Under the pieces are notes generated by a model. The model was not told the DNA's origin. It saw nothing but the letters and a program-made list of their open reading frames with translations, and made no database searches. DNA of 64,000 nt from contig JBHGNT010000003.1 in NCBI GenBank assembly GCA_043228905.1, positions 18,476,001-18,540,000 of the forward strand, in the 5' to 3' direction. The first letter of the stretch is position 1. Each line of letters opens with the position of its first letter. The translations under genes were made by a program, and so were the position numbers. This DNA is from Azolla caroliniana. Its lineage: Eukaryota; Plantae; Polypodiophyta. Positions 2,559-64,000 of the stretch are shown piece after piece.

Positions 2559-3379
2559 CCTTCGATCAGGGGTTATAACACTTATAACCCTTTTGCTCAT
2601 CCGAGTAGTCGACAAGAATGCATTTCTCGGCTTTCGTGTGTAGCTTCCTCCGCTCCTCCTTCGGCACATGCACATATGCAATGCTACCGAAAACCCTCAA
2701 GTGTGCCAAGTTTGGCTTCATCCCGAAGTACAGCTCGCGTGGTGACACTCCTCCATTTGCAGAATTCTAATTTTGCAGGTATATCACCGGCCTGACAGCT
2801 TCGGCCTGGTAAAACTTTGGCCAATGCTTCTCTTCAAGCATCACCCTCGCCGCTTCTTCGGTCGTCTGATTCTTCCTTTCGGCCAAGCCATTCTGTTGTG
2901 GTGTGTATTTGTAAGAGAATTTGTGTCGAATTCCCTCCTTTTGTAGCTAGCTAGAGAACTAGTAAGAAAAGTACTCTTTTCCGCCATCGGTCCTGAGGCA
3001 CTTGATTTTTTGGCCTATCTCCTGTTCGACAAGGCTCCTCACCATCAAGAAGCAAGAGAAGACTTCACTTTTCTTCTCAATTAGGCATGCCCAGGTATGC
3101 TGAGTGAAGTCATCGATTAAGGTAACAAAGTAATGACTTCCACCGATGCTCACGTTCTGCGCTAGTCCCCATACATCCAAATGGATTAAATCGAGATTGT
3201 TTCATCTTCAATTTCTTTCATTTGGGAATGGAAGTCAATGATCCATCCCTAATTGGCAGGCTTCACAAACATAGCCCTTTCCGCCATTGAATTTTGGCAA
3301 GCCGCTATCGTGAAAATCCGTCACTATGTGCGGATCGTGAGGCGGAACCGCCGAGGTTATGGACGGGAAGGAAATAGGG

Positions 3380-4225
3380 CTCACACGCACAACACAAGCA
3401 AGGCTTACACAAACAAGGCACAAGTATTCGAACGTGTTTGTGAAAAGAAGAGGTGCATGGGCAAGCCCGAATCAACCCCTAGTCATAAAACGAACAAATG
3501 CATGCGAGGAGGGCTTACACACGGACACACAAGGAACTTACACAAACAAGGCATGAGTATTCGAATGTGTTTGTGAAAAGGAGAGGTGCATGGGCAAGCC
3601 CGAATCAACCCCTAGTGACAACGCGAACGAATGCACGTGAGGAAGTCTTACACACGGACACACACGAGAGCCAAAGTTTTGAATGCCTTTGTGAAAAGAG
3701 AGGTGCGTGGGCAAGCCCGAACTCTCCCTTGTTACAAAATACATGTGAACACACAAGCAAGGTTTACACACGGGAGATACAACTTCGAACGCCTTTGTGA
3801 AAGGAGAGGTGCATGGGCAAGCCCAAATGATCCCTTGCCACAAGTCGCACGAACACACAAGCAAGATTTACACTAACACGCAAGACACAAAAGTTTGAAT
3901 GCCTTTGTGAAAGGAGAGGTGCATGGGCAAGCCCGAAATGCTCCCTTGTCACAAGACACACAAACAGATAAGCACAAATGACAATAACAAATAAGACACG
4001 TAAGTTTGAATGCCTTTGTGAAAGGAGAGGTGCGTGGGCAAACCCGAAATGCTTCCTTGTCACAAGACACACAAACAAATAAGCACAAATGACAATAACA
4101 TATAAGATACGTAAGTTTGAATGCCTTTGTGAAAGGAGAGGCGCATGGGCAAGCCCACAACGCTCCCTTGTCACAAGACACACAAACAAATAAGCAAAAA
4201 TGATGATAAAATATAAGATATGTAG
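3380..4225. repeat. Tandem array of about 7 units of ~107-133 bp inside the solo LTR
   Basis: Recurrent core GCCTTTGTGAAAGGAGAGGTGCATGGGCAAGCCCGAA near 3440, 3573, 3691, 3798, 3908, 4018 and 4129. Confidence 0.9.
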
Positions 4226-4486
4226 GTGAAACCAAACATTTGTTTATTGCAATATAGTAGATTCTTTTAGAAAATAAGAATCAATTTTACAACGGGTTTG
4301 ATATGAATATAAGAGATAATTTATAAAGGAAGGGGCAAGAGAGGTGGAGGAAAGAAGAGAGTGGAATATAGAAGAAGGTGATTCTTCGTTGATGATGCTT
4401 CTCGATGTTGTTTACTGTTGGGAGACAGGTCCCTCCAGATGGGAAGGGAGAAGAACAGTGCTGATGAGCAAACTCGGCCGAGGCCG

Positions 4487-4700
4487 AAACCGGATGACGA
4501 GTACCCGGCTACGGAGAGCCGGATGGTGCAGACCCGGTGAGAACCGGATGAGGAGAACCCGGCTACGGAGAGCCGGATGGTGCAGACCCGGTGAGAACCG
4601 GATGAGGAGTACCCGGAAACGGAAGACTCGGTGAGAACCGGATGACGAGTGCCCGGCAAGATCCGGATGATGCGGGCCCGGTGAGGAGCGCTCTCCGGAT
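4487..4700. repeat. CCGG-rich 54-bp tandem repeat inside the solo LTR
   Basis: GAACCGGATGAGGAG(T/A)ACCCGGCTACGGAGAGCCGGATGGTGCAGACCCGGTGA units starting at 4487, 4541 and 4595, then degenerate. Confidence 0.9.
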
Positions 4701-7700
4701 GAAGAGACATATTCGTAAATATGTTTCTGAGAGTCCATCGTGGCTATATTTGTAAATAGCCGAAAAGTCATTCTAGTATAAATATGACTTAAGGCAAACT
4801 TTTGTAGTTGTTGTTGTCATTCTTGTTGGTGCAAGAAGAGAGAGTGCGTAACAGTGTACAGAGTGAGAGAGAGAGAGAAAGAGTCGAAGGTTTCGTATCT
4901 CTGTTGTAACCGCCGACTGTGGCGAAGATAGCAAGCTCGAGGTCATTGCCTCGGTGCTCCACCATTGTACATTCTTATATATACTGATAGTTTGGAGTCT
5001 GTGGACTCCCATGGTTTTTTTTCCCTCTCAGGGTTTTCCACGTTAAACATTCTGTGTACTCTTATCGCCTTTGAGTCGTGTGTTTCAGTTCCTGTTTTCT
5101 ATGTATGATTCTAAGCTCGGTTGTGGCCGAGCGTTGCGCATAGGGAGCGTGCAGTTCTTGTCATTTACCCTTCTTCTTTTGCCTTCCAATTGAGTAGATC
5201 TTCCGTGTTCCTTCTCCCTGCCCCCCTTCTTCACTAGAATAAGCTCTTATTTATAGGTTTAGGATTGCTTGCCTTTTCCCCTTAAAAAAAAGCTTGTCTA
5301 CATGAGTCGACTTTTCTTTTCCTCACTATTTCTGTTTTCTAGCCCCAAATTTCCCATGCAAGATATTCTTGGAAAGGTCTTTGGGTTAGTTTTCTTATAA
5401 ATCTTTTCTTTTCTAATTTGGACATCTGATGAAGAAATTATGAGCTTTTTTCTCTACTGTGCTCCTCATATCCACGCGTGCTTCTTCTTTTTTTCTCCCC
5501 ATCTTTTTCTCTACTTTTGAAAACCACTTCTAACTTAATATTCATCATTATTTATAGTAAGGTTCAATCCTTTGACCATTTATTTATAAGGAATATCTTT
5601 GGAAAATGAAAAAGTATTTTTGCTACCAATAAAGTTGACTTCACAATACTAGTTTATTTGAACTACTATTGTACTTCTTTTCGAGGGTGGTTTCACACTA
5701 TGTATTAGAAACATCACGACACCGCAGGAAGTTGACATGGCCGAACCGCTTGTGGCACAAGTCAATATCCGATTCGACTTTTTTCCCTTTCACAAATATA
5801 GCGGTTCCGACATTGTTTGTTTTGAGGATGAATATCCTCCCTTCTCGGCACCTTTGCGCGATGATCTTGGCTTCTTCTTCGATAAAGCATCTGAGATGAG
5901 TAAATTGAACTTCCATGCCTTGGTCGACAATTTGTTCGACCAATACCCGGTTCTTTGTGATTGTCAGCACATGCCAACCATTTCACATGATTCCCTTCTG
6001 GCCGACATGGCTCAAGGAAACATCTCTGTTGTGCTGGATGTTCCATGTACATCATCTTATTGTTTGTGTGTGCTCATCAATGCACCCGAGTGGTTTTCTT
6101 CTATAAGCAACATCGATTGAAGCTCGAAAAACGAAGGCGTATTCTCCCTTGTGTAGACTACTGTTCGGAATGCTCCGAACTTCAACGCCAACCCTTCGAG
6201 CCTGACCATCACCATCTCGTCCTCCTGGACATTCACGTTGACGGAGTTGAGGGAGTCACAGATCTCCTTGATTCGGGTTGTATAATCGGCCACAGATAGA
6301 TCTTTCTGTCGGACATTACTGAGCTCTTGCCTAAGCTGCAACTTCCTAGCCATTGTGCTAGTGGCGAAAATATGTTTGAGATTTGCCCACGCGTCCTTTG
6401 GCATCTTGGCATCCCGAATGTAGCTCAAAAGCTGGTCACTCACACAAGATGCAAAGCAATACAAAACTCTGCTCACCGTCTGTTCCCAGGCTGGGAAATC
6501 TTTGTGTGTCGATTCAGGTGCTGCATCATTAGCTCCTTCGACATAACTCCAGTAACCGTGCCCAAGCAGGTATTGGTGCATTTTGTAAGAACATGATGCG
6601 TAGTTGTTCCTATCGAGCTTTTCGGTCAAAAGCGAGCGTCCCATACCTCTGTCCATGTTCTTGTATTTCTTTTCCGAAAACAAGAAACTTTGTCTCTGTC
6701 TTGTTCGCTTGCTTTTCTGTCGGCTGCAGAGAGGTCTCAACCCTCGTGCATTGATACCATGTAAAGAATACGATTGTGGAAGCGTGTGTGATAGACACCG
6801 AACCGAGTACACGGCCAGTGTTCGGAAACTCAACAGTTAGGTAACCACAAAGAATGGTGAGAGACAGAGACAGAGAGAGCAGACAACAAAAGTTTTATTT
6901 CGAATAATGAGCACTCTGTATATACAATGTGCTCAATGAGTACTTTTTATACAAGCCCTTGACAAGTGGGCTAACACAAGTACCATCAATACTTGAATGC
7001 TCATACACAATATTCCTTTCGGAATCCTTCCTACTCGGCTCACGACCCTCGGCTCTCGGCTCTCGGCTCTCGTCTCTCAACTTCTTCAACTAATTCGATC
7101 CTTGTTGAGCTTGTCTCTCAAAAATGGTGCTATAGTATTTTCGAAAGTCAGCTCATCCATAAGCTCCCTTACCATTTATTTTTTTTCTGCCCATGCACTT
7201 ATCTTTGATTCCATTATACATCCAAATAGTTTTACCATTAGTGAGCCAACTATGATGGTTTGATAGTTATTTATATTAAGGCTTTCTTATGTTCTCCTTC
7301 TCCTTCTCTAACTTGGGAGTTCTAGGGTTTTGGGAGTGAGTGAATATGAGGCTAGAGTCTGACCTCCTCTCCATCTTCATCTCTACTTGGTTAGGTTTTT
7401 CTTCACCACGTCCGAGCCACCAAAACGTCCAGAAAAAATCGTGGGGAGAAGACAGAGTCCGGTACAATGATCAAGGAAGGAAGCCCGAAGTAGCACAGGG
7501 CACCCCACATCAACAAGAAGTGGCATTGCCGTTGATTATGGATCAGCTCATCGAAGACCACAAAGTTTGGATCTTTATCATTTAGTTATTGGGTTTGGAT
7601 TCAGGTTGCTTGGAGAGGCGGAAAAAAGAGGAGCAAGGCAAAGAAAGCATGTGAATCGAATGAGGGCATAGTGTGAAGAATGAGAGACGTAGTTGGTGCT

Positions 7701-7748
7701 ATGCAACGGAAGTGAGCTCTGTGTGTGTGTGTGTGTGTGCATGTGATG

Positions 7749-7780
<32 letters not shown>

Positions 7781-10263
7781 CTCTAGACAAGAAAACTATA
7801 TATTACATCCAACAATAACTAAGTTACAAAAGGTTGGTTTAAATACCAACTGATCTAGGGCAAGTGCCCTTTCTACTAATTACAAAAATATCCTAGTACA
7901 ATGTCCACTAACTAGTGTGAATACTATCTTTATGGGAAGTTGAGTTCGATTCTCAACATGCCCCTTCGAACACAACTTCCAGATGTCGAAAATTTGTTCC
8001 AGTTCGGTTTTCTTTGATTTGGATGAATCGGCTTCCGGTTTTTTGAAATCTTTGGCTTTTCGGCTTCATGCTCGTTGTTCGTCATACTTCTGCTTCTTGG
8101 CTGCTTCCATGTCACCTGTCGTACTCCCCCTCAAGCTCGGCAATGTAGAGATTGTGAGACCAAGGCCCAATGCAAATTGTGCGAGCTTGTCGACTCCTAA
8201 GGCCTTCGTAAAGATGCCAGCAATTTCAAGGTTCGTACTAATATGTTGGAGATTGATTTCGCCATCCTGAATGCGCTTGCGAATGAAGTGGTTGTCAACT
8301 TTGATGTGTTTAGTCCGCGCGTGGAATATCGGGTTCCGAGCGAGATAGATGATGCTCATGTTATTGCAATAGAGGCGAATTGGATCCATGATGGGAACGC
8401 CCAGATCCTTCAAGACGCGTTTGAGCCAGACAGCTTCGCACATGGCTACTAACGTGCCCCTGTATTCGGCCTCTATACTCAACAATGCGACTGTTAGTTG
8501 CCCCTTGCTACACCAAGAGATTGCTCCCCTGCCGAGAGAGAAAACAAATCCGGAGGTTGAACGTCTATCGGCCTTATAGCCTACCCAGTCCGTGTCTGTG
8601 TACCCTTTGAGTCGAATAAGCGTATTAGACTTATACATGATGCCGTAATCCATCATCGTACTGACATACCGAAGTATCCTCTTACCACAATCGAGATGAT
8701 CATTTTGTGGGTTCTCCATGAATTGGCTAAGTAGGCTGACTGAATAGCTGAGGTCAGGTCGTGTGATGGTTAGATAGATTAAGTTGTCGATCAGTTGTTG
8801 ATACTGAGTTGGCTCGTACTCAGTTGTACCCGAATCGACCTCGAGCTTGAGATTTCAGTCGAGAGGGTAGACATAGGTTTGCACTTAGTCATTCCGAACT
8901 TGTAGAGTAAGTTGAGAACGTAGTGCCGTTGAGAGATCAATATCCCGACTGGTGTCTGAATTACTTCGATACTGAGGAAGTAATGGAGCTTGTGCATATA
9001 TTTCATTTTGAATCTGCTGGATAGTAGTGATTTAACCTTATTAATCTCGACAAGATCCTTTCCTCTGATGAGTAGATCATCCACGTGTAGGATGATGACA
9101 ATTGGGTTGTGCGACTCGTTTCGGATGTACATGGAGTTGTCTTATTTTGACATTCGAAAGTCAATTTATTGAAGATATTGATTGATCTTCAAATGCCAAG
9201 CACATGGTGCTTGCTTAAGGCCGTAGAGTGGCTTCTTTAGTCTAAATACTGCTCTCGGATGATTTTTCGATTCGAAACTAGGGTTTGAATCATGAAGACC
9301 TCCTCTTATAATTCGCCTTGGAGGAAGGCGTTCTTTACATCAATCTATTGGAGATGCCACCCTTTCACAACTGCGAGTGCAATTACGGTCCACACAGTCG
9401 TCATCTTTACCACCAAGGCAAAGGTCTCGTTGTAATCGACTCCATGCGTTTGTTCGCATCATTTTGTGATGAGTCGTGCTTTGAAGCGATTTACTATGCC
9501 ATCGGCATTATATTTGACTTTGTAGATCCATCTACAATAGATTGCTTGCTTGTGTGGTGAATGGGGGATGAGATCCCATGTCTCGTTTTGGTTAATGCCT
9601 ACATTTCTTCATTCATCGTGTCGACCCACCGCAGGTCCTTCACGGCTTCGGAAAGGGTTTTCGGCTCTCATATTGTTGCTACTTTCATCATAAAGGCATA
9701 GTGATATGCCATATATTCATGGTAGCCAAATCGGCTAACTGGGTTCTTGTCTCCAGTGGAGCGACTGAGCTTCTCGTTTCCAGAGGCTATGGCTTTCTTT
9801 GCTCCATTCGTCTGGATGATCAAGTCAACTCTATTTCGATCGGATCTTTGTACTTTGGCATTTTGGCCTTCTCTTTTTCCAGGTTCTGACTCGGCCGAGA
9901 TGTGCTTCGATCGCTCAATGGCTCTTGTGGTCCACTAAATCGAGTCATGATCGGACTTTCTTCGAATATGCACCTGAGTCAATCTTCTTCTTCTGTCTCT
10001 CGTTCAGCCAATTCCGGGTCAATTGGGGTCGGAATCGGAATCATCTTCAATTCATACCAGGATGCCGACTCGTTGAAAACGACGTCTCGACTTACTCGAA
10101 CTTTTCGGGTAGATGGGTGGTTGTAACATTTGTACACCTTTTGTTAGAGTGAGTACCCCACGAGGATACATTTCTCCAACTTCGGGTCGAGCTTTTGTCG
10201 CTTCTCGTCGGGAACATGCACGTAGGCGATTGAGCCGAAGATCCAAACATGTGATAAATCCGG

Positions 10264-13200
10264 TGTCGCGTTGCTACGCGCGTGCGTGTAGAATAAGGCG
10301 GGACCACAGGGGTCTCGGACGAGGTAGTAGTAGGAGAAGGAATAAGACACAAAATGGAAGCTTAGCTCAAGAGGAGAAGAGAAAGAATAGCACAATAACA
10401 TAGAATAGACGGAGGCAAGATATTTAACAAGTTAGTTTAAGGAAACATAAACGCTTTACAATGGTGGCCGCCATGGCCGCACCAAAACGACTATGAGAAA
10501 AACCCTAGAAGAATAAGCAAGTAGCGAAGTATAGTAAAACCCTAAAGGAAACCCAAGAAGAAAACCCTAACCAAAACCCTACAACCGAATAGGAAACCCT
10601 CGACCTAAGTGGTATGCCTCTCTCTCCCTCAAAATAGGCAACCCCTTCATAAGTGACCCCTCCCTTCCTTTTATAGCCCAAGGAGGGAGGGACCTTACAA
10701 TGTGGGATAAAATTTCCCCTCTCTTTCTATACACCATATCCTAGTATACATGTGCACATGTTGCACACCACCGACTTGCCCATTCCACCCCGGTTTCACA
10801 CTATAGCCGGAAATCTTCACGACATCCACCCCCACCAAACCGCACATCCACCGGTATGTGCTAAGAAAGGAAAAGGGTGAGAGATTTCGGCGACAATGAT
10901 CAACTGGGTCTTTCGCCTTACCGGCACCCAATCGTCTTGCCGGTCCCTTGCCGGCGCCGATCCGTCTTGCCGGCTTCTTACCAGCCCCGACCCGTCGGCT
11001 CCATCCGATCCACCACGTCCACCGCGTGTCCCCGAACCGGCGGCTCCATCCGATCCGCCATATCCGACGTTCACACCTTCTTCTTCGACCGGCCCTCTCG
11101 AGCGTCGTTGCTGACCCGGTTGCTCTTCCTTTGTCCGCCATGCATGCCCTTCGATTGGGGCCCCGGTAACTTCGGTTGTACGCCCGATTCCGTGCCTTGC
11201 ATGCCGCGTATGTCCCTCCGTCGGTTCGATTGTCTCTGGGTCCTGAACACCTCCGCGTGCCAACTCTCTCCGCTCCGTGCTCGCCTTCCATAGGCTCTTC
11301 CTGTGTGCTATTATCGTTCCCCAAATACGCATTCGTTCTTCGGTCCTTAGGCGACCCTATTACACGCTCCTCACTTCCCCCTTGCTTGTCTGCTCTCTCG
11401 CCGTAGAGCATACCATCATACCGATCTTCGTGTCGGTGTCCTTCGCGGCTCTTGTTACCACTTTGCCTCGACTTGCGCCCTCCTGGCCTCGCATGTCCTC
11501 CGGGATGCCACGCTTTCTCTTCTCGGCGTGTACCCCTTTGTTCTCCGCGCACCATCCTTCGCTCTCGCCACCCATTCGCCGATCCCGGCACCTTACGGCT
11601 TCGTCTCTCGTCGCGTGCTTGCCTCTCAAAGGCTCGACCGGTCCGCCGTTGCCGGTCACTCATTGCCGCTCTTCTGGGTGCATGCTTACTTCTTGGCCCT
11701 TCGCCGGCCATAGTGCATGCTCCGTTTTACACCCTTCACTCACCGTAGACCCGATCTCCGCGTTGGCCTCTTCTCCCTTTGTTGCCGTAGCCCATTCCGA
11801 CTCGGGCTTGCCGTCTTGGTCCCGCTCGTCCATTATTTCGTACCAGATATCTGCACCAGTTTCCGACTCCGCATCAGCCTCTAACTCCTCACCGCCACCC
11901 GCCGTCTCTTCGGTCTTATGTTGATCCGCAACCGCCGAAGTCTCAAGAATAGGTGTGGAGGGTTCCTCTTGCTCTCGGTCTTCCACCAAGCCGTAGTCAT
12001 CATGCCCGCTTGGCCTCCTTCTCGTGCTCACCGGCTCCCACCGCTTGTTGTGGCTCATACGCCTCGGCCTCCAATCATGCCGACTTAGCCTTCGCCTGGA
12101 TCGGTCTCGGCCGATCGAGTTCTGGTTTGGTCGGCTCCCTTCCATAATCATAACCGACCGGTACATGTTTGTCCGTACAAATCCGGCCTTGCCGGCTCTT
12201 CTTCGGTTCGGGCTCGGTTGACCGGACCCCGCTCCAATCTTCTTCCGCGTCGTCTTCTGGTCGTGTCGGATTATCGACCGGTTCATCTTCCGGTCGGGTC
12301 GGTTCCCGACTCTCCCTCTTTGCCGCTCCCGACCTCTCCGTCGGTCCTCTTGTATATGCCCGTTCCGGGCCTCGCATCCTCATCTTCGTACGTGTTCGCT
12401 CCGGGCCACGCCTCCTCACAACCACCGCCCTTCTCTCTGGTCTTATGTTGGCATTCGAGCGTAACCGTCGTAGTCTCCGGTCTCGATGTCGAGGGGTCTT
12501 TCCTCCGTCCGCTATGACCTTCCTCGTCGTTGTTTCGGTCGTCCGCTTTGCCGCCGCCACCTTCCGTCTCTCCGGTCTCATGTGGGCTCTCGGGGCCGAC
12601 CGCTGAAGTCTCTAGAATAGGTGTGGGAAAAGTCTCGGTACCATCACTCGCCGATGTCATGTTTGTAGCCACCTTCGTTCGGACGCCGTGGTCCATGGCT
12701 ATCTCGTCCCCGGTTACGCAAGCCTCGGTTATGCTTGCTACCTCCTCGTCCTCGTCCTCGTTGCCGTCGTGGTTGCCCGCCTTGCCGCCACCACTGCCCG
12801 TCGCTCTAGGTCTCAGACCGGCACTCGGGCCGACCGCCGGAGCCTCTAGGACTGGTGTGGGTAGGGACCCGGCACCGCCGCTCGTTGTGTCCGTAGCCAC
12901 CTTTATCCGGACGTCGTTGTCCGTGGCTACCCCGTCTCCAATCGTGGAAGCCTCGATTACGCTTGCCGCCTCCTCTTCCTCAATCTCCTTGCCGTAGCCA
13001 CCTTTATCCGGACGTTGTTGTCCGTGGCTACCCCGTCTCCAATCGTGGAAGCCTCGATTACGCTTGCCGCCTCCTCTTCCTCGATCTCCTTGCCATCGTC
13101 TTGGTTGCCCGCCTTGCCGCCGCCACCGTTCATCACTCTAGGTCTCACACCGGCTCTCGGGCTGGATGCCGGAGTCTCTAGAATCGGTGTGGGTAAGGTC

Positions 13201-14611
13201 CCGGCACCACCGCTCGTCTCCTCCCTGGTCGATGTTTTGGGCCATCGTGTCCCGAATCCTCGCCCACTCTCGAAGTGGTGCTCCCCGCTTCGTAGTCACC
13301 GGCCTCGTCCATGGCCGTCCCTTTTCTGCAAGACGAGAGGGTCGCTTGCCCTGCACCCTCTCCCACGTCATCGCCGTTGCACGCTCTTCCGGCCTCCGTA
13401 TAGGCCCCATCGTCGACGCATAGGGAGGCTTCTTCCTCCGCATCCTCAGATCGTCTCCGGCCCGACTCCATAATAAGCCCTTCTTTAGCTTCGAACTTCA
13501 CCTTCACGCTCTCACACGCCTCCCATACCAACGCCTCTAGGTCGTACTCCTCCGGTTGATTGCGCGTCGAGCTCTCTTCCGACGGTAGTGCGTAGTCGCT
13601 CACCGCCCTCTCTTCTCCTCTGCTCGTGGGCCACGTTGTTGCCGACCGCTCCCCATCAGGTTGCCGGCATACCCACTCCGGTTTCGCGTATCCGTATCGT
13701 CCAATAGAGCTCCCTCAAAGGCCACCCACGACTCATGAGCTTCTCATAGCTCCTTGACCTCCTTGTGCACCGATACGGCCGCCACTCGAGGAAAATACTC
13801 TAGCCGCATCGCCTCGTCCACGCCCCCTTTCGCCATCTCAGCCTTGTAGGCTCCCAACATTTTTAGGACCTCATTCCCATTGAACCGGCCGACTCGATCG
13901 ACCACCCTTTCGACGGCTTGTTGAGCCGCATCTCGCTTCACCATCTTCCGTTCGGCTTCCATCACGATCTTTGCCATCATCTCCTCGAAGTCGAAGTCTT
14001 CTTCCATCTCCATGCTCCCTTGCCGCCCTTCACGTCGGGTTTACCAAAGATGTCGCGTTGCTACGCGCGTGCGTGCGTGTAGAATAAGGCGGGACCACAG
14101 GGGGTCTCGGACGAGGGAGTAGAGGAGAAGGAATAAGACACAAAATGGAAGCTTAGCTCAAGAGGAGAAGAGAAAGAATAGCACAATAACATAGAATAGA
14201 CGGAGGCAAGATACTCAACAAGTTAGTTTAAGGAAACATAAACGCTTTACAATGGTGGCCGCCATGGCCGCACCAAAACGACTATGAGAAAAACCCTAGA
14301 AGAATAAGCAAGTAGAGAAGTATAGTAAAACCCTAAAGGAAACCCAAGAAGAAAACCCTAACCGAAACCCTACAACCGAATAGGAAACCCTTGACCTAAG
14401 TGGTATGCCTCTCTCCCTCAAAATAGGCACCCTCTTCATAAGTGATCCCTCCCTTCGTTTTATAGCCCAAGGAGGGAGGGACCTTACAATGTGGGATAAA
14501 ATTTCCCCTCTTTCTATACACCATATCCTAGTATACATGTGCACGTGTTGCACACCACCGACTTGCCCATTCCACCCCGGTTTCACACTATAGTCGGAAA
14601 TCTTCACGACA
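10264..14611 (-). mobile_element. Non-autonomous gag-only (TR-GAG-like) LTR element A of the tRNA-Trp gypsy group; LTRs 10264-10824 and 14051-14611
   Basis: Two highly similar 561-bp LTRs TGTCGCG..CACGACA. TSD CCGG (10260-10263 and 14612-14615) splits the copia 2 integrase motif EKKPDLSH. Gag remnant 13744-14013. PPT on the minus strand just right of 10824. No pol motifs seen. Confidence 0.92.
14029..14046 (-). promoter_or_regulatory. Primer-binding site complementary to the 3' end of tRNA-Trp(CCA)
   Basis: Plus strand TTCACGTCGGGTTTACCA versus the plant tRNA-Trp 3' end TTCACGTCGGGTTCACCA (recalled); 4 nt (TCTT) from the LTR. The same PBS occurs at 51246-51263 (-) and 59601-59618 (+). Confidence 0.8.
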
Positions 14612-36261: not shown

Positions 36262-36284
36262 CTCGACAACTTGGTTTTCTTGTA

Positions 36285-50114: not shown

Positions 50115-51291
50115 AGACAAGTGTCGAGGGATCTTGTCTTTGTCCGCTACAAACTTCCTCATTCTCCTTGTGGTCGTCTCTAGAACTGGTGTGGGCAAAG
50201 TCCTGGCACCATCACTCGTCGATGTCATGTCCGTAGCCACCTCCATTCACGTTGTTGTCCATGGCTAATCCGTTCTCGATTACACAAGCCTCGATTATGC
50301 TTGCCTCCTCCTCGTTCGATTTTTCGGGCAACCGTGTCCCGAAACTTCCACCCACTCTCAAAGTGGCGCTCATTGCTCCGTAGTCCCTGGCCTTATCCAT
50401 GGCCGTCCTTTTTCCGCAAGACAAGAGGGCAACTCACTCTGCACCCTCTCTCATGTCACCATTGTACACTCCTTCGGCCTCCACATAGACCCCGTCCTTC
50501 GTGCATAGGGAGGTGTCTTCCTCCGCGTCCTCCAATCCTCTCGAGCCTGACTCCATAATAGGCTCGTCTTCGGCTTCGACCTTTGTCTTCAAGATCTTGT
50601 ACGCCTCCCGTACCAATGCTTCTATGTTGAGCTCCTCCAAACCATTACGCGATGAGCTCTCCTCCGGTGGTAGTGCGTAGTCACTCACCACCCTCTTCTC
50701 ACCTCCGCTTTTGGGCCGTGTTGTGACCGATCGCTTCTCATCATGTCGTCGACATGCCCATTCCACTTTGGTCCAATCCTCGGTGAGGCCGTGTGCTCCA
50801 TAATCATCTTCGAGCTCGAGTAGAATGTCCATCCTTTCCTCCCGATGGACCGACTTAAAAAATAGTAGGACATTGTCCACCCCCACCGATCTTCGATCCC
50901 GCTTCGAGAGTTGAGCAAAACGAGCTCAAACTCTTGGAATGCTTTCATTGCGCCCCGATGGGCCTTCACGGATGCTACCCATTCGTCGAACTCGCGCCGA
51001 CCTTGCCCCTCCGGTTTCTCATACCCGTATGCCTCGCCTACCTCCCTTGTCGTCATCTCGGCATTGTAGGCTTCTAAAAATTTCGAGACCTCGTTCCCAT
51101 TGAAATGACCGACCTTCTTAACCACGCTCTCGATGGCTTGTTGAGTCGCATCTCACCTTTCTCTTTCCTTCGAAAAATTCATGATCATGCTCAACATCAT
51201 CTCCTCCAAATTTTCTTCCTCCATCATCATTCTCCCTCACCGTCCTTCACGCTGGGTTCACCAAAGATGTCATGGAAATCCGCGTATACGT

Positions 51292-52330
51292 TGTCGTGAA
51301 AAATCCGTCACTACGTGTGGATCGTGAGGCTGAACCGCCAGGGTTCTAGATTGGAAGGATTCGAAGTTTGCACTAGCTTTAACGAGAAAGTATTTAAGAT
51401 AGATTGAAAGAGAATGAGATAAGATAGAATGCTTGACTTTAGATTGAGAGACATTGAAATGGAGAGAGAGATTAAGATTGAACCCTTGACTTTAGATTTG
51501 AGGAACAAGATATATCATCAATTGGATAACGAATTTTCTTCTTCTTAAATTTTTGATTAATACCTAGCTTGTTTTTCTTTTTTATCCACTCTTTTATAGA
51601 TGCCCCCATGCATATGATGCATGTGAGGGCGCAAGACATGCATGTAATGCACAAAATGCATGAGATGCATGTTTGCCATTTGGCGCTCATGCATTACATG
51701 TGTTGCATGATAACCATGTCACTCATTCAAGCTCTCATGTATGAGAAATTACATGTGAAAGTATAATGATAAAAATATAACTTAAAAAATAACTTGACTT
51801 TTTCGTTTCACATTGAAAATCTTCAAGACACCATGCGTCACGATCAACCTATCCGACCAACCCAACCGATCCGTCTGTCCGATCCCGACCGATCCAATTC
51901 CGGTTCCGTCCGTCCAGATCCGATTTCGGTTCTCCAAAACCATTTTGAACAACTTGGTTGAATCCATTCGTCCAAGTTATACAACCCAACCTTTTTGTGC
52001 TCCTACCACATAGATGAAATATAAAGAGATATGGCCCTACTTATATACTCTTGAATCCTAATGGTGTTTCTATGTGGGATATCTCATAATTTTGTTTTCC
52101 TCCTTTACTTCTCAAACTTCACACTCACATAACTTGACACTAAGTTGTCCATTTCACATGTAGTAAAATGCATTCGGAAGCTCTTGAAGACATCCATCTT
52201 TTCGTACCAAGATATTAAACTAATATAAAATAGTATCTTCACTATTATTGTTTCATATTGTGTGAAGAACCACACTCGATTTTGTATGTTCCTCGCAATT
52301 TTCACACCAATGCCGAAAATCATTAGGAAA
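51292..52330. mobile_element. Solo LTR of the TGTCG group nested in the LTR of element B
   Basis: Start TGTCGTGAAAAATCCGTCACTACGTG, as at 3306. End TTTCACACCAATGCCGAAAATCATTAGGAAA aligns with the LTR end TTTCACACTATAGCCGGAAATCTTCACGACA. Flanks ACGT (51288-51291) and ATGT (52331-52334); the host LTR resumes in register. Confidence 0.68.
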
Positions 52331-53459
52331 ATGTGTCGAAAAGGGGTAGGACCACGGGGGTCTTGGATTAGGGAGTAAGAGAAGGGAGAGAAGCTTGGGA
52401 GTTCAACCGAGAAGGAAGAGAAAGATTAAGATCCAAGACATTAAGATAATGGAGAATAAGATTTAAACAAGATAAGATTCATCGAATGATTATATTACGA
52501 AAACACCACATGAATTACAACCATGGCCGCGTAGGCCGAATGTAAACCTCTAGATGAAACCCTAACCGGATAGGGGAAAAGAAGAAGAAGAAGAATGAAT
52601 GAATGAAACCCTAAAACGAGATCCTAAATCTTGAAACCCTAAAATGAAATAGGGATAATTAAAACCCTAATGGTCTACCCCGAAACAACAAAATGGCGAC
52701 CCCTCCAAAAGTGATCCCTCACTGCCTTTTATAGTAGTAAGGGGTGAGGCACATTACAAAAAGAGAGGCCAAATATTCCCTTCTTTCAATGAGGGATATT
52801 TGCCTTGATCTTAGGAGGAGAGATTGATGGAGCCTTAACTCCCTCTCCTCACACTTTCACACACAACCACACCCTCTACATCCGTACTTCCATCATCCAT
52901 GCACACCCCCTTTAGTCTACATTTGCATGACCCCTTAAGTACACATCACCTTTATACTTCACAAACTTTGTAGTGCACTTTTAGCACCTTACATTTTACC
53001 CTTCCTTTCACATTTGTTACTTATTCTTATTTTACAAATTCCCTAAGTACATGTGCAATGTTGCACATCCCACTTTATTCATCCCGCTCAGGTTTTCTCG
53101 CCATAGCTGAAAATCCTCACGACACCGGTTCATATTTTTCAAACCAGCCATTTATGCATTTTTTCCTTTAAATCGTTTCCCCCACTTTCCAAGTTTCCCC
53201 CTTTCCCCCCTAAAACATGTAAAGACCCCCTTTTTTTTGCAAGAGCTTCATTCTCCATTTGGTCTTGTTTCACCATAGCTACCAGGCCTCGAGATACTCT
53301 CTCTCTCTCTCTCTCCTTCTCTCTCTCTTGATTTTGACAAGCTATGGCTTGAATCAAAGCTCACAACAAGATATATGATATGATCTAAGAAGATTAATTC
53401 TGTAATTAACGAAAGCTAACAAGTTTAAGAGGTATCCTTCTCTTCGGGTTTGGTCCTAC

Positions 53460-55860: not shown

Positions 55861-55879
55861 TCACATATGTCTCCCTTCT

Positions 55880-58302
55880 CGTTAAGAATCAAGCTCAACT
55901 TGTGTGAACATGTGTTTATGAAGAAAAGGACGATGTGTGAAAAAGTGTGTGAGCACACTTTATTGTACTCCATGTAGTTGTCAAGTGTTAATGTGGTCAA
56001 AGAATATTATATATTCTTATGAAAAAATCGTACTAAAGTGGATATCTTTATTAGATTCTACCAACACATTTAATATGGTAGTCCCTTGAGGACTTGTATA
56101 TAAAACCCCCTTTGCCCATTTTGTTTTGTTGATGATCATTAGTTAATTAATATAGCTCTCTTATGTGCATAAGCTGTCATCCCCCTATTGTATGTCTTCT
56201 TATTTTCTGGTTATTCTCTCTAATTCCTTCTCTTGCTTATACACTCACTCTCTCTCACACACACTATGCTTCTGAATACTCAACTCTACTAGAGTCAGAT
56301 TCTTTACATGGTACCAGAGCATGAGGGTTAGAGATCCTTCACTGAGCTCTACCATTGAAACTGTGTCAACAGCTAGAGACGTTGTTTCAAACCAGCTATT
56401 GTCGCTGTAGCGTTGCACGGCAAGAGGCTCACGTTAACAAGAGCATACAAATCAAGCTAAATCAGAGAGATGAATGCACAAATGGATAACGCACTTCCAG
56501 TAGAGAAGTTGGACAGGCACAACTACGCATCTTGGGAATATAAGATGCAACAGTACTTAGTTGGGCAAGGGTATTGGAGTTATATTGAGTGAGCTCAAGA
56601 AACAACCCCCGATATTATAAATCCCAACTACCCCACATGGCAGCAAGGCGCCAGTAGGGTAATGTATTATTTGGCAACATGTGTGCAAGATCACATGTTA
56701 AGCTATATTCGAGATGTGAAATCCCCAACAGAAGCGTGGAAAAACTTGAAGAAGATTTTCGCGACTTCAACCACAGGGAGAAAACTTCAACTCTGGTAGG
56801 AGTTGAACAATATTCGGCAAGGGGAAATGTCCGTGACCGACTATACCCTCTGGATCAAAGACTTATGCGATTCACTTGGCTCCATCAATGTCGCAATTGA
56901 TGATGACGAGATGGTGCATATCTGCCTTGGTGGCCTTGCACAAAAATATGGCTCATTTCGAAATGCCATAACAATAAGGGAGAACCCCCCAAGCTTTTTC
57001 GACTTGCAATCCATGCTAATGGTTGAGGACAACCATACACGGTCGAAAAGCATGACATCTGATGGGCAGATGCTATATACACATGATGATCTTGGTCGAC
57101 GTAATGGTCGTGGTCGTGGAAATCGGGGGAGGAATGGCCGAGGAAGAGATGGACGAGGTCCACAACAATTTAATTCGAGACAGCAAGAAGATCGAAACAA
57201 CCGAGGGAATTCCGACAGGAAAAGGGGAGCTTCCACCAACCTGCATCAACCAGGCAGAACCAACAAACTGAGTGCTGGTATTGTGGAAAGCCCGACCACT
57301 TTGAAGTCGAGTGTCGAAGAAGAAGAATGACTCAGTTGCCTCATCTCGACAACAAACAAACTATGTTGTGATGGCTGACCTAAAAAACAAAGGGTAGATG
57401 TTTGTTATGCGACACCAAGCGAATAACATGATAGCAAGTGTTTCCCAACCTGATGATGTCAGGTTCATGGACTCAGGTGCCTCAAATCACATGACAAGCC
57501 ATCAAGAATGGTTCATGAATTTGAGGGAACCTGAGAGACCCGATGTGGTGGAGATCGGTGATGACTCCACACACATGATTGAGCACATCAGAGATGTGGC
57601 CCTTAACAATCACGACAACAAGGGCTACATGAAGGATGTACTGCATGTCCCGACAATCACAAAGAATTCGGTCTCAGTTGGCCAAATTGTTGAGCAAGGA
57701 ATGCAAGTACGATTCAACCAGGAAGGTTGCTTCATTGAGGATAAGGGTCAACTTATCGCTCATGCAAGAAGAGAAGGTCGCATGTTTATTCTTGATGCGA
57801 CTAAGGTGAACACAACAATGTATGCAAAGGGACTCAAGGACGAGTCTGATATTGAGTTGAGGGTTGGCCATGTAAACCTCTGTAAACTACGATCAATGCA
57901 AACAAAAGGGGTTGTGCACAGATTGCCACGATTACTTCGAAACATCCTGATAATGAATGTGAGGTGTGCCAACTAGGCAAGAAACATAGGCATCCATTCC
58001 TAAGTGAAAGAAATGTGAGTAAAGGCTTGTTGGACGTCATCCACTCAGATGTATGGGGCCCAACTCAAACAACGACAATCGGTGGGTGTAGGTACTTCAT
58101 TACCTTCATTGACAACTATTCGGGGCATACTTGGATATGCTCGATGAAGTCAAAAAGTGAGGTCTTCTCCCACTTTCTCAAGTTAAAGAATCGCTTGGAA
58201 AATGAGACGAATCGCAAGATTCGATGCTTACGGTCTAATGGTGGCCAAGAATACTTCTCAACCGAGTTCAAGGCATTTCTAGAAGAGAAGGGGATTCGCC
58301 GG
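55880..58302 (+). mobile_element. Ty1/copia element 5, 5' part (LTR ~55880-56308, PBS, gag, protease, start of integrase), interrupted by the gypsy at 58303
   Basis: PBS TGGTACCAGAGC 56309-56320; gag 56471-57330; MDSGASNHM; HSDVWGP..FIDNYS..RSNGGQEY. Related to copia 2. Confidence 0.88.
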
Positions 58303-58614
58303 TGTCGTGTGAATCTTCACACACTATGTAAAAAAATAATGAAATAATTATTATAGATTAGATTAGTAGCTTACTATAGAAAGATGGATATACTCAGAGC
58401 TTCAAAACGTATTTTACTATATACAAAATGGAGAAATACATATCAAGTTATGTGAAAATGAAGTTTGAGAAGATAGGGAAATTAGAACTATCCCACATAG
58501 ATAGGAAACTTAAGGCCTTGGCTATATAAGCACCTTGAGCTCCCTCATTTTTCATTTGTGCTAAGAGCACTTTGGCCACTTTGTCTTGATGGATGATGGT
58601 GGCCAAGTTCCCAA

Positions 58615-58990
58615 AAACCGGAAATCGGCCGGTATGCAAACCGGAAACTGGCCAGTAAGCAAAACTGGAGTGCAAAAATCGACCGGTATGCAAATCCGGA
58701 AACCGGCTGGTATGCAAAACGGAAATCAGCCGGTAAGCAAAACCGGAATTCGGAAATCGGTTGGTATGCAAATTTGGAAACTGGCCGGTATACAAAACTG
58801 GAATTCGGTCGGTAAGCAAAACCGGAACCGGAACCGGTTGGCAAGAAAATCGGAACTGGCAAGGAACCGGAACCGATCAGCAATCAAACCGAAACCGGCC
58901 GGCAAGCAAAATCGGAACAGGAATCGGCAAGCAAAATTAGAACCAGCCGGCGAGGGATTTGGCGATCGGGCGGAACCGGCTACCAGACGA
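58615..58990. repeat. CCGG-rich degenerate tandem repeats (AAACCGGAA.., CCGGTATGCAAA) in the gypsy LTR
   Basis: Directly visible short repeating units. Confidence 0.85.
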
Positions 58991-61900
58991 GGTTGGACGC
59001 GGACGGACGGAAGATTGGATCATGCAACAAACTAAAGTAAAGTGAAGAGAACTAAAGTAAAGGCCATGTGGACGCAAGCAACTAAAGTTGGAGTGCATGC
59101 AAAAAGTAAAGGTCATGTGGACGGTCGCATGCAACTAAAAGAAAAAGCCATGCAACAAAAAGTGGACATGTAGATGATCAAGGGAGAACTCCATATAAAA
59201 TTCCATTTTTTTTCCTACACTCATGCTCTCTCCATATTATCTTAATTGTTTTTCTTTTCCTTCAGAGCTCTCTTATCTTATCGAAGCCAAGAACCCTAAA
59301 TTTCCTTACGGAAGTCATAAACCCTAATTTTCCCTACGGAAGCCATATAATTTTTCTATTGAATCCATATTTAGTTTCTTCTAATATATTATTCTAGTAA
59401 TCTCCATAAGCTAAACATTTGTAATCCCAATCTTGGGATTGATTGTAATCTTTCTTTTCCTTTGTTAATGAAATTTGTCAATCTTTCTTATTTCCGTTAA
59501 TTGTTAAAAATATAAAAGCACGAATCCGATATCCTCTGGTCGGAGGCCACGGGGTCCTGCCTCAAGTTCGCGTGTCCTCGTCGTATTTTCGCGACATCTT
59601 TGGTGAACCCAACGTGAAAGAGGTGGTAGGGAGGATATCAAGTGCAACGATGGCTTGCACAAGTGGAACTCAAGGAGAGGAATTAACGAAAGGCATGGTG
59701 TCCATAGTGGAATACATGCTGAAGGTGAGAGATCGAGAAGCTCTAATCGACAAAGCTGTTGATCGTACGGTTGAGATAGCCGGACAATTTGGTGGCAAGA
59801 ACATCACAGATTTTCTTGCTACCTATCAGAACGAGATGCAACAAAGGGATGTCAATGATCTCAAACAAATTTCTAGCTTCAAACGTGTGGTGGAACCAGG
59901 GATCCGCGAGCACGTCATGGAGATCCAAAACGAGCATGCAACTTGGGTGGAGTTCGAAAAGGCGCTTCTCGTTGAATACATGCTTGAAGACGCATCACGG
60001 ATGACTCAACATACGCTAATGTCTTGGATTAAGAAGAAAGGAAAGAATATGTGTGCATCTGGAGTATATGCCGAATTCGACCAGAAGTATAACCGACTTC
60101 CGAGTGTTGATCAACAAGTTATTGATGGAGATAAAGTTCTACTATTCCTGAAGGCAGTGGATGCGAAAGATCGGCATGAATTGGGTAACTTTTGGAGGAT
60201 GAAACACAACCAAGTGGCTTGGTAGTGAACTGGGTGGCAGTGAAGAAGGCTTGTAGTCGTCTTGATAAGCGTCGACAACGGCAAGAGGAAATTGATATGG
60301 AGAATCCACAATCGTGGAGGAGGAAGGCACCTCTTACGATCGAGTCTAACAAGCCGTTCAACAATTTCGATAAGAAAGCAATGGAGGAGTCTATAATCGA
60401 AGAGCTCTCCAAGAAGTTTGAAGCGGTATCGCTAGCCAACTTAGGTCAACGCGGGCCTAAGGGAAAAGAAGCGTATAGATGTGTGTGGTGTGATAGCTTC
60501 GAACACTCACGAAGGGAATGTGTCGACTTGCATGATGCGATCCGCAAGAATGTCATCTATTTGGACGGCAACACGATTCACTCAAGCGAGACCCGGAAGC
60601 CACTACGAGTGAACTTCGAAAGAGGTGGGCTGAAAAAGATTGTAGAAGAAGAAGATGCAAGGCATGTGGAAGCTATGCACTATGCCGCTTCGGCTGGGAT
60701 ACGAGTTGGAAAAGAGAATCTTAAAAATGATCAAGCCAAGAGCTGGGTTTTGGCCAACAGTCTTCGAGTGCGAAGAAAAAGGAAAAATCAATTCGGAGGA
60801 TCTAAAACTTGCTGACCGAAACGTGCGACGAGCTACCGGATGGTCAGATCCAATCGATGAAAAAAGAAGCTTTGCAGAGGTTGTGTGTGACACCTATGAA
60901 GCCCTTGTCGAAGAGAAGAGGAAAAGAACCGGTGAAGAAGGTGGCACATCAAAGCGTCCTAACACGAGGAGCGGAGGGAAAGAAGGGCCACCCCAACCTA
61001 TCCCAAGAAAAGAGATTGGTGAAACAAACATGAAGCCCGGTGGATCGAACCAACCTGCTCGGATGGAAGTCGAAGAATCAACGAAGAAAGGAAAAGAACG
61101 AGCGGCACCGACTTACAAGCTAAGGTCGGACATAGAACAAACAACTAACTTGCGGAAGGTCCTTGAGGAGAAGGTTTTAGATAGTCATGTCGACCTTACC
61201 TTGAGAGAGCTACTTGGGATCGCGAAGAAGGAGTTCCATGATACTATCATGGACCTTATTAAAAGGAAGCGGCAACAATATGATGAAGAGGAGGTGAAAA
61301 CAAGTGCCATAACCATGGCAAGATCGGAAGAGGAGGAAGAAGAAGAAGTGGTGGCGGAATGCCATTACTCTCGGCCTCATTGGGCAAGAGAGACAACGGA
61401 GACGCTGGTAAAGATTGGGGAGAAGAAAGAGACCGTAGTCGCTTTGATTGACCATGGCTCAGAGATCAACCTCATGTCGACCGAGTTCTACAAGAAAGGA
61501 AGATGGCTGATTAATACAAACCACGGATGGAAGATTCGAGCGATGACGAAGGCTGCAGAGGACTTGTACGGAGCTTGCCCCAACGTTAAAGTCACGATCG
61601 GGGATGTGGAGATTGATCAACACTTCTTTGTGCAAGACTCGGCTTCACATCCTGTCATCCTAGGACAACCGTATATAACATCGTCCCAGATGGAGACCAA
61701 GGTGTTCGATAATGGAGCAGCCTTCGCGCGCGTCAAGAGTCTTGATAGTAAAAGATCTGTTCAATTCCTGATGGTGCGAGCTAATCATGAAAGGAACCGA
61801 GATAGCCTTGGAGGCGAATCCTCGGATTTTTAAAGCAGACTATTGAAGCATGGGGCACAAATAGTTCGAGCAATCATAAGTCCCCACAAGGAAGCAGAGT

Positions 61901-62772
61901 GCGTGGATTGCAAGGAGAAGCAACATGCGTCACACCTAGCGGCGCATGCAAACTAAGACTACTCAACAAGAAGGAAAAGTGTTAGATACAAGACTTCGAG
62001 GAGGTGCTGAAAGAAGAAAGCATAATCGAAGAAGAAGAATTCGTGTCATATATTCTAGAGGAAGCCTCATTTAACGACACCATTGGCGAAATCGAGGAAG
62101 TCGTGGACTTGAGCTATCCTCACCATCAACATGTGATTTCGGTTAACTCCGTCAACATGTATACTATCATCGATGAATATCGTCAAGGCATCTTGATAGA
62201 GGAAGCCGAAGTCAACACAAAATATAAAACTGTGGATAGGAAGATCAAGCCAGTTGCAATTCCGCTACCGGAAGATAGCTAGCAAAAGATGAAGGAAGTT
62301 GCAAAAGATCCAAGCTTAAGGAACCCAAATACAATTGGTCACGTCTTCACTGAAGAGACAAAGGGAAAGCTACGGGTTGGAAGGGAGGATTTCCTCCTTC
62401 CTGAAGAGGAGCAAATGTTCCGCGAAATGCTTCAAAGACATGGGAAGGCTTTCTCATTTTTCCCACAAGAAATCAGATGTGCGAATCCAAGGATGGTAGA
62501 ACCAATGGTGATCTTCACGGTGCCGCATGTGCCTTGCAATTTGAAACCGATACCGGTTCCGAGAGCACACCTACCGAAGTTGATCGAGCTCTTAAAGGAG
62601 AAGGTGAGGATGGGAATTTTGGAACCGTCGAACGCTCCTTATTCTAATAGATGGTTCACGGTGCCAAAGAAGAATGGATCGTTGTGATTCATTCAAGATC
62701 TTCAACCTGTCAACAAGGTGACAATTCAGAATTCTGGAATCGGTCCGAGTGTGGATGAATTTGCCAAGGCGT

Positions 62773-63841
62773 TGTCGCGAAGTTTCGCGCATGCGTGTAG
62801 GAAGAGGCGGGACCACGGGGGTCTTGGACTAGGGAGTGACGGAGCGTAGGAAGTTGTGCTTCACCATTTCCGAGGCATCCCAGATGCACACCGGAAGCAA
62901 CCGAACGGGAGAGAGAAAGAGAGAGAGTGCGCGCTTGACACCGACTCACACCCACACACACACACACCACGCCGACCGAACTCACGCCCTTATGTATAGA
63001 AACGGAGGTAAGAGAACACCAAAACACCCACACAAACACTGATACGCAGAACCCTCAAGCAACCGAACGGGAGAGAGAAAGAGAGAGAGTGCGCGCTTGA
63101 CACCGACTCACACCCACACACACACACACCACGCCGACCAAACTCACGCCCTTATGTATAGAAACAGAGGTAAGAGAACACCAAAACACCCACACAAACA
63201 TTGATACGCAGAACCCTCAATGCATATATTACAAGACTAAGATACAATACTGGTATCGAGCCCGACCTAAGTAGCTCAGGTTACAACAGTCGTCTACTGC
63301 CAAGCCGCCGGTCGGGGAGCTCTTGAGCTTGTCGTGCCGAGCAAGGTCTTGCACAGAGAACAGGTAGAAAACAGGAACACGAGATGCCAAGGCTCGATAC
63401 TCAGAACGACGAAGAGGAAGAAGCAGAGGCAAGAAGAAGAAAAACGAAACCCTAAACAAGAGAAAAGAAAGAGGAAGAGAGAATGTTTCTTCCTCTAACG
63501 GTATACCCTACTACCAAAATGGGCAACCCCTTCACCAAGGGCACTCCCTTCCTTTTATAGAACAAGGAGAGGGATCCGTAGCATCGAGGGGTAAATCCCT
63601 TATTACATGGGATTCTTGTCCCGACTTGATTACTTTCGGCACCATAAAGGCGCCCTCATTATTCACACTAAATGTACAAGGGTGAGCGCACATGCTGCAC
63701 CCCGCCGATGTAGCCAATATTTCCCGGTAAAGGCGCCCTCATTATTCACACTAAATGTACAAGGGTGAGCGCACATGCTGCACCCCGCCGATGTAGCCAA
63801 TATTTCCCGGTTTCCGCCTCTGGCCGAAATTCTTCACGACA
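62773..63841 (-). mobile_element. Solo LTR of the TGTCG group inserted in the gypsy RT, with internal 162-bp and 83-bp tandem duplications
   Basis: TGTCGCG..CACGACA ends; TSD GCGT (62769-62772 and 63842-63845); the RT reading resumes (FAKA|FAGRSIYS). GGACCACGGGGGTCTTGGACTAGGGAGT shared with the element B LTR. Duplications at 62895/63057 and 63645/63728. Confidence 0.9.
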
Positions 63842-64000
63842 GCGTTTGCGGGCCGGTCCATCTACTCCATCGACGATCTCTACTCTAGCTATGATCAATT
63901 CCAGTTGGCGGTCGACAGTCGTGACATTACAACCATGAGAACTCCAATCGGGTTGGTGCGGATGTGTACCTTACCTCAAGGCGCAACGAACTCGGTGGCT

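What the first reader, a model, noticed from the sequence alone, without database searches (positions are those of the whole stretch)
3302..63845. A tRNA-Trp-primed gypsy group that appears to integrate specifically at CpG (4-bp NCGN target duplications)
Seen: six independent insertions with TGTCG..CGACA-type ends, all flanked by 4-mers centred on CG. They are CCGC/CCGC (3302, 5722), CCGG/CCGG (10260, 14612), CTAG/CCGG (42038, 53125), ACGT/ATGT (51288, 52331), CCGG (58299; right end outside the window) and GCGT/GCGT (62769, 63842). Both mismatched pairs differ only by CpG-deamination-type changes (CG>TA, CG>TG), implying the target CpG was or became methylated. Five of the six sit inside other retroelements, whereas the copia and chromovirus TSDs here are 5 bp with no shared motif. 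Established: most plant LTR elements make 5-bp TSDs with weak specificity; CG-centred 4-bp targets are known from some insect errantiviruses (ZAM/Tirant, CGCG). Inference: the integrase reads (methyl-)CpG, steering the family into silenced TE chromatin and away from genes without needing a chromodomain.
Basis: partly seen in the sequence, partly recalled or inferred. Interest (0 to 1): 0.85.

Follow-up and report, generated by a model that had tools for sequence, protein, structure and literature searches.

The report
Phygy-type plant retrotransposon inserting at CpG
These jumping genes land almost only on the DNA letters CG, but this is the published habit of the Phygy family of plant retrotransposons, to which they most likely belong, and it is likely read from DNA sequence and bendability rather than from methylation.

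Summary
All six insertions and their flanking 4-mers check out, and the sixth closes with CCGG 332 bp past the window. Elsewhere in the genome, 185 of 224 non-redundant LTR termini have CG at the centre of the flanking 4-mer (5% background; copia control 1 of 24). All 37 perfect duplications are 4 bp and CG-centred. It is not new: Neumann et al. 2019 (REXdb) define the non-chromovirus Phygy lineage by 4-bp NCGN duplications, a tRNA-Trp primer site and 7.7-10 kb length. This family matches those features and has Physcomitrium, Riccia and Adiantum relatives; placement against labelled REXdb sequences could not be run. The methyl-CpG reading is not supported. The integrase has no chromodomain or MBD, and the motif is VCGB (TCGA 0 of 140, 14 expected). 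Nesting in TE coding DNA (44%) equals that of random VCGB sites (42%), so CpG density alone accounts for it. Small additions: the VCGB refinement, the wider host range, and a conserved predicted -1 frameshift (GGATTTT plus pseudoknot) between protease and RT.

The parts
3302..5725 (-). E1: solo LTR 3306-5721 with internal tandem repeats, TSD CCGC/CCGC, inside a copia coding region
   Evidence: no gag or pol match
10260..14615 (-). E2: 4.35-kb non-autonomous element, LTRs 10264-10824 and 14051-14611 (12 substitutions in 556 bp), Trp PBS just left of 14051, PPT at 10825-10840, TSD CCGG/CCGG, inside copia 7672-17071
42038..53128 (-). E3: non-autonomous element, 3' LTR 42042-42853, 5' LTR 51268-53124 (split by E4), weak gag relic near 50731-50922, copia nested at about 44408-50114, flanks CTAG/CCGG
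   Evidence: empty site not found
51288..52334 (-). E4: aged solo LTR 51292-52330 inserted at ACGT 21 bp inside E3's LTR, TSD ACGT/ATGT
   Evidence: sister LTR at 42062 carries ACGT once
58299..64000 (+). E5: internally deleted autonomous-type element: 5' LTR 58303-59596, Trp PBS about 59601-59618, broken gag-protease to 61833, RT from about 61812; ends 332 bp past the window with CCGG; inside a copia integrase gene
61824..61886 (+). Predicted -1 frameshift signal between protease and RT: slippery GGATTTT, stop, stem 61837-61844 with 61860-61867, loop TGGGG complementary to CCCCA at 61882-61886
   Evidence: not tested by experiment
62769..63845 (-). E6: solo LTR 62773-63841 inserted in E5's RT, TSD GCGT/GCGT
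   Evidence: 43 hits to uninterrupted RT copies with one GCGT

Best explanation
The six insertions belong to an abundant Ty3/gypsy non-chromovirus family, most likely of the known Phygy lineage, whose integrase duplicates 4 bp centred on CG (motif VCGB) and likely selects that site by DNA sequence and bendability, not by methylation. Shown: 4-bp CG-centred duplications, avoidance of T before and A after the CG, tRNA-Trp priming site, and a gag-protease / RT-RH-integrase layout ending in an SH3-like domain and a short acidic tail. Inferred by analogy with foamy-virus intasomes: a 4-bp stagger needs a sharp bend at a central pyrimidine-purine step, and side chains of the catalytic core and of the C-terminal domain loop add the base readout that narrows this to CG. 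Inferred: the pol-less elements and the LTRs left as solo copies were inserted by the same integrase, supplied in trans. Because TEs in this genome are CpG-rich and gene regions CpG-poor, the sequence rule by itself sends most copies into other retroelements.
For: 185 of 224 termini CG-centred; CG at offsets -2 and -4 in 0 of 224; 37 of 66 pairs perfect at 4 bp and none at 3, 5 or 6 bp. 37 of 37 perfect pairs CG-centred; copia control 1 of 24. Among 185 CG-centred termini, T at the first position 8 and A at the last 8; TCGA 0 against 14.2 expected, ACGT 27 against 7.5, ACGG/CCGT 47 against 14.9. TE-protein overlap: insertions 97 of 222 (43.7%), random VCGB sites 253 of 600 (42.2%), random positions 161 of 600 (26.8%); repeat hits 120 of 222, 369 of 600 and 267 of 600. 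Window gene region 113 CpG in 10.5 kb against 2128 in 53.5 kb. REXdb row: Phygy, 186 elements, 4 bp (100%) NCGN, tRNA-Trp 81%, 7656-9968 bp, no extra domain. Here 11 of 12 paired RT-selected copies are 7.5-8.4 kb. Eleven P. patens proteins are 51-63% identical over the protease region and form one clade. Pfam finds no chromodomain, MBD or extra RNase H; best fold matches are foamy-virus and Ty3 integrases. YR flexibility and Ala188/Arg329 contacts: PMC4422553.
Against: No labelled Phygy RT/RH/INT sequence could be compared (REXdb FASTA too large), and the tree has no labelled outgroup. Insertion flanks are slightly more CpG-depleted than VCGB-anchored windows (o/e 0.88 against 0.97, naive p 0.005; inside the block-bootstrap range 0.87-1.04), and fewer lie in CpG-poor DNA (9 of 222 against 428 of 5951, p 0.08); both lean weakly to a chromatin or selection effect. 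Flanks hit copia coding DNA more (28% against 17%) and the family's own coding DNA less (14% against 23%) than the null, which I did not explain. No methylation data were seen. The integrase model is moderate (mean pLDDT 68, pTM 0.42) and has no DNA, so no contact residue is shown.
Confidence: 0.8

Rival explanations
1. The integrase prefers methylated CpG (directly, or because 5mC eases the bend), which steers the family into silenced TE chromatin without a chromodomain.
For: Strict CG centre. Flanks slightly more CpG-depleted than the VCGB null and fewer in CpG-poor DNA. Phygy-labelled elements are enriched at centromeres in a liverwort (PMC12885004 passage). Methyl-CpG targeting exists in CopiaMBD (PMC6673714 abstract).
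Against: TE nesting equals the sequence-only null. No MBD or chromodomain. The TSD transitions are post-insertion, with no strand asymmetry (CA 15, TG 12, p 0.70). ZAM-group elements target CGCG (PMC5408687) in a fly that has lost DNA methylation (PMC6673714).
Confidence: 0.12
2. Sequence readout picks VCGB, while a separate tether (for example the acidic integrase tail binding a chromatin protein) or purifying selection sets the regional bias.
For: An acidic tail follows the SH3-like domain in all 47 of 50 aligned integrases where the GPY/F motif was located. Small deficit of insertions in CpG-poor DNA and excess in copia coding DNA.
Against: Regional statistics are close to the sequence-only null; the tail sequence is not conserved beyond its charge.
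Confidence: 0.25
3. The CG signal is an artefact of misplaced LTR boundaries or of CpG-rich surroundings.
For: LTR ends are themselves CG-rich, two window ends are decayed, and most loci came from top hits to window LTRs.
Against: Termini were called from inner probes without looking at flanks; CG is fixed at one offset; uninterrupted paralogues carry the 4-mer once; hand-picked stretches give 13 of 17; copia control 1 of 24.
Confidence: 0.01

Closest known systems
Phygy (REXdb non-chromovirus Ty3/gypsy clade of Physcomitrium patens; Neumann et al. 2019, PMC6317226)
   Same: 4-bp NCGN TSD, tRNA-Trp PBS, about 8 kb, no chromodomain, no aRH, polyprotein fills the internal region; P. patens proteins are 51-63% identical over the protease region.
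   Different: Another host genome, with the host copies on a branch of their own. The motif resolves to VCGB. The ORF layout, 'ND' in REXdb, is here gag-protease then RT-RH-INT in the -1 frame. Pol-less 4-5 kb derivatives are common.
TatI (OTA/Tat subclade, REXdb)
   Same: 4-bp TSD and tRNA-Trp PBS.
   Different: TatI carries an additional archaeal-type RNase H (100%); none is found here. No NCGN motif is listed for TatI.
ZAM/Tirant errantiviruses of Drosophila (PMC5408687)
   Same: Gypsy-group elements with a CG-centred 4-bp palindromic target (CGCG).
   Different: They have env and AGT-type termini. This family has TG..CA ends and no third ORF, and GCGC/CGCG-like sites are not favoured (GCGC 2 against 4.4 expected).
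Prototype foamy virus intasome (PMC4422553)
   Same: 4-bp TSD, central pyrimidine-purine step, best structural match of the modelled integrase.
   Different: PFV preference is weak and accepts any YR step; here it is nearly always CG.
CopiaMBD of arthropods (PMC6673714)
   Different: It is a copia element with a captured MBD; no MBD here.

Membership tests
Phygy | 4-bp TSD with NCGN motif | tested here: met
   185 of 224 termini; 37 of 37 perfect pairs
Phygy | PBS complementary to tRNA-Trp | tested here: met
   17-nt match to host tRNA-Trp(CCA) plus CCA in L122; one or two changes in window copies
Phygy | Length about 7.7-10 kb, polyprotein spans the internal region, no extra ORF | tested here: met
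   11 of 12 paired RT-selected copies 7.5-8.4 kb; ORF lists of L122 and L125
Phygy | No chromodomain and no aRH domain | tested here: met
   Pfam scans of 2 host polyproteins, their C-termini and 8 homologues; short acidic tail only
Phygy | RT/RH/INT phylogeny inside the REXdb Phygy clade | tested here: inconclusive
   Labelled references unreadable. Protease-region tree of 40 rows links host, P. patens, Riccia and Adiantum proteins but has no labelled Phygy or outgroup
TatI | Additional archaeal-type RNase H | tested here: not met
   One RNase H only in host polyproteins
Selgy | tRNA-Ala PBS, about 5 kb | tested here: not met
   PBS is tRNA-Trp; full copies about 8 kb
Chromovirus (Tcn1, CRM, Tekay, Reina, Galadriel) | Chromodomain at the integrase C-terminus | tested here: not met
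Methyl-CpG-reading retrotransposon (CopiaMBD-like) | MBD or other known methyl-DNA reader domain | tested here: not met
   None in Pfam scans or among the listed fold matches
Methyl-CpG-reading retrotransposon (CopiaMBD-like) | Preference for methylated over unmethylated target | not testable with these tools
   No bisulfite or biochemical data; the indirect genomic null shows no excess

The most novel reading that the evidence does not exclude
An old lineage shared by mosses, liverworts and ferns has an integrase that itself senses 5-methylcytosine at the bent central CpG, giving heterochromatin targeting with no reader domain, and makes RT-RH-integrase through a pseudoknot-driven -1 frameshift placed after the protease.
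Probability: 0.12. Interest if true: 0.65.

Novelty: new member of a known kind. Interest (0 to 1): 0.22.

Why it matters
The CG preference is already in print, so the finding mainly confirms it in another genome with numbers. It is useful as one of few sequence-selective plant LTR integrases: the VCGB rule and many young copies make the sequence-versus-methylation question cheap to test in vitro. It also shows that a plain CpG rule can bias insertion into TEs and away from CpG-poor genes with no chromatin reader. The predicted -1 frameshift after the protease fills an 'ND' in the reference table.

Tried and rejected
No labelled Phygy reference was obtained: REXdb Additional files 1 and 3 are too large to read, and the P. 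patens RLG2 transcript cell was cut at 400 letters and not informative. These unseen supplements bear on the membership claim and on whether VCGB is visible in the REXdb TSD list. The pol homologue search gave Riccia, Adiantum and unnamed environmental hits, with no named P. patens protein in the best 120; the gag-protease search gave them. The empty site of E3 was not found in the genome or in four public runs. Run search: no RNA holder listed. The host clade is not settled: one PI31 exon gave 3 hits, the best named one Sphagnum at 66% over 50 aa. The protein atlas gave generic gypsy integrase clusters only. The first copia control had an off-by-one probe and was redone. Four of 66 automatic pairs were mis-paired and dropped before the mismatch count. 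Strand asymmetry of TSD deamination as a sign of prior methylation: none seen, and it would be a weak test. Literature searches: 'NCGN + retrotransposon' 3 papers, one relevant; 'Phygy' 18; methylated-DNA integration 4, none on Phygy; frameshift + moss 10, none on Phygy by title; CG dinucleotide + Physcomitrella 0. The library lacks most subscription journals.

Full report
Observation. Self-alignment, ORFs and Pfam resolve six insertions. E1 (3306-5721), E4 (51292-52330) and E6 (62773-63841) are solo LTRs. E2 (10264-14611) and E3 (42042-53124) have two LTRs, a PBS and a PPT but no pol. E5 starts at 58303, carries gag, protease and part of RT, is internally deleted, and ends 332 bp past the window followed by CCGG, so its duplication is complete. 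E1, E2 and E5 sit in copia elements, E4 in E3's LTR, E6 in E5's RT. Uninterrupted paralogues carry the 4-mer once (43 hits for E6, 5 for E4, 4 for E2, 1 for E5, none found for E1 or E3). E3's CTAG/CCGG is plausible but unproven.

Genome-wide test. I fetched the top 30 loci for each of five window LTRs, 20 RT loci and 20 ten-kb stretches around long-ORF copies, and called termini from 24-nt inner probes without reference to the flanks. Of 355 termini, 72 faced a PPT, 50 a PBS and 233 faced outward; 9 duplicates were dropped. CG is central in 185 of 224; CA 15, TG 12, TA 3, other 9; flank background is 5.1%. Of 66 automatic pairs, 37 match perfectly at 4 bp and none at 3, 5 or 6 bp. After dropping 4 mis-paired ones, 62 of 62 have CG on at least one side and all 37 perfect pairs are CG-centred; a copia family gives 1 of 24. 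Forty 10-kb stretches picked by hand across 21 contigs give 13 of 17, two of the misses sharing one flank. These are samples, not a census.

The motif is narrower than NCGN. Among 185 CG-centred termini the first base is A 81, C 62, G 34, T 8, and the last is A 8, C 25, G 70, T 82. Per insertion (140 of 167 CG-centred), TCGA is 0 against 14.2 expected, CCGA/TCGG 3 against 25.5, ACGT 27 against 7.5, ACGG/CCGT 47 against 14.9. So the rule is a symmetric VCGB with no strong signal further out.

Anatomy. The PBS matches the host's own tRNA-Trp(CCA) genes. Young copies are 7.5-8.4 kb (11 of 12 paired), with a gag-protease ORF and an RT-RNase H-integrase ORF. The integrase ends in an SH3-like domain and a short acidic tail. 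No chromodomain, MBD or second RNase H is found. A model (mean pLDDT 68) matches foamy-virus and Ty3 integrases best. Relatives are in Riccia, Adiantum and P. patens; in a protease-region tree of 40 rows (1 dropped) the 11 P. patens proteins form one clade and the host copies another. The host is probably a non-seed plant; that is inference.

Does it read methylation? Sixteen of 30 TSD mismatches are transitions at the central CG and 11 more are transitions at the outer bases, but these arose after duplication beside a silenced LTR, and LTR pairs show the same bias. The better test is a sequence-only null. Insertion flanks overlap TE coding DNA in 97 of 222 cases (43.7%), random VCGB sites in 253 of 600 (42.2%), random positions in 161 of 600 (26.8%); repeat hits are 54%, 62% and 45% (library of 13 natural ORFs; control windows drawn from 40 stretches, so not independent). 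The window's gene region has 11 CpG per kb against 40 elsewhere. Nesting therefore follows from CpG density. Against this reading: flank CpG o/e is 0.88 against 0.97 for the null (inside the bootstrap range 0.87-1.04), CpG-poor flanks are 4.1% against 7.2% (p 0.08), and copia hosts are over-represented. Selection, age or a weak chromatin effect could each give that. No methylation data were seen, so a methyl preference is unsupported, not excluded.

Mechanism. In retroviral intasomes a 4-bp stagger goes with a flexible central pyrimidine-purine step, and PFV Ala188 and Arg329 contact bases at and beside the site (PMC4422553, abstract and passages). CG is such a step. I infer bending plus base readout by the core and the C-terminal loop; no contact is shown here. 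ZAM-group elements reach CGCG specificity (PMC5408687, passages) in a fly without DNA methylation (PMC6673714, abstract and the text that follows it in the outline).

Comparison with what is known. Neumann et al. [quoted passage not shown] Their Additional file 5, read whole, lists Phygy with 186 elements, 4 bp (100%) NCGN, tRNA-Trp 81%, 7656-9968 bp, no extra domain, organisation ND. Phygy also dominates in 4-bp TSDs and nests in other elements in PMC6911290 (passages), and is reported in a liverwort (PMC12885004, passages). PMC7466625 (passages and one supplement part) did not link a named P. patens family to Phygy. Four structural features are met; the defining RT/RH/INT placement could not be run. 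TatI, Selgy and chromoviruses each fail a tested feature.

Side result. In 16 of 20 long-ORF loci the gag-protease frame ends DF-stop at GGATTTT, and in 14 of those 16 a frame of 1090 aa or more continues in -1. Fourteen distinct copies (2 of 16 dropped: one unrelated, one deleted downstream) keep an 8-bp stem five bases after the heptamer's following codon region (96% of cells paired, 2 pairs changed on both sides), and 13 of 14 keep a loop able to pair over 5-6 bp with a downstream CCCCA. G_GAU_UUU is a known -1 shift site in an umbravirus, and the same review lists only +1 cases for plant LTR elements as of 2003 (PMC5009743, passages). The sequences are related and coding, so the covariation is suggestive only. 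My search found no paper on this for Phygy.

Verdict. Real, strong, and already described at lineage level: a new member of a known kind. Interest 0.22. The methyl-CpG reading keeps about 0.12.

Noticed in passing
window 61824-61886 and loci L115-L133, L032, L230, L248, L255: Conserved GGATTTT slippery site, stem and loop-downstream pairing (predicted H-type pseudoknot) between protease and RT; also kept in diverged subfamilies whose pol stops within tens of codons.
   Followed up: partly
window 10264-14611 and L003/L004, L012/L013, L015/L023, L018/L020: A group of 4.2-4.8 kb pol-less elements with intact ends and clean VCGB duplications, likely moved in trans.
   Followed up: partly
L061 (G000:C16:795418-797633) and L190: Family LTRs inserted directly beside or inside each other, sharing a VCGB 4-mer; the LTR ends are themselves rich in target sites.
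   Followed up: no
L224-L263: About 11% of random 300-bp windows hit this family's proteins, so the family is a large part of the genome; GC and CpG vary widely (104-868 CpG per 10 kb).
   Followed up: partly
G000:C8:17796786-17823371 and C16:4989495-5105657: Tandem clusters of tRNA-Trp-type 3' ends: 16 copies at about 1.2-kb spacing on C8 and 19 on C16; the six loci checked elsewhere are tRNA-Trp genes.
   Followed up: no
window about 29370-33290 (-): Intron-rich PI31 proteasome regulator gene in CpG-poor DNA, free of these insertions.
   Followed up: partly
window about 34150-37920 (-): MULE transposase and Ulp1-like protease ORFs with a 32-bp-period repeat between them.
   Followed up: no
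window 1442-2370: Small element with two ~260-bp direct repeats 666 bp apart and a purine tract before the second (TRIM-like); ends not resolved.
   Followed up: no
L019 (G000:C12:16982231): An LTR end joined directly to telomere-type CCCTAAA repeats at an interstitial position.
   Followed up: no
window 41690-41960: Decayed copy of a very high-copy repeat, with many differences from its relatives, left of E3.
   Followed up: partly
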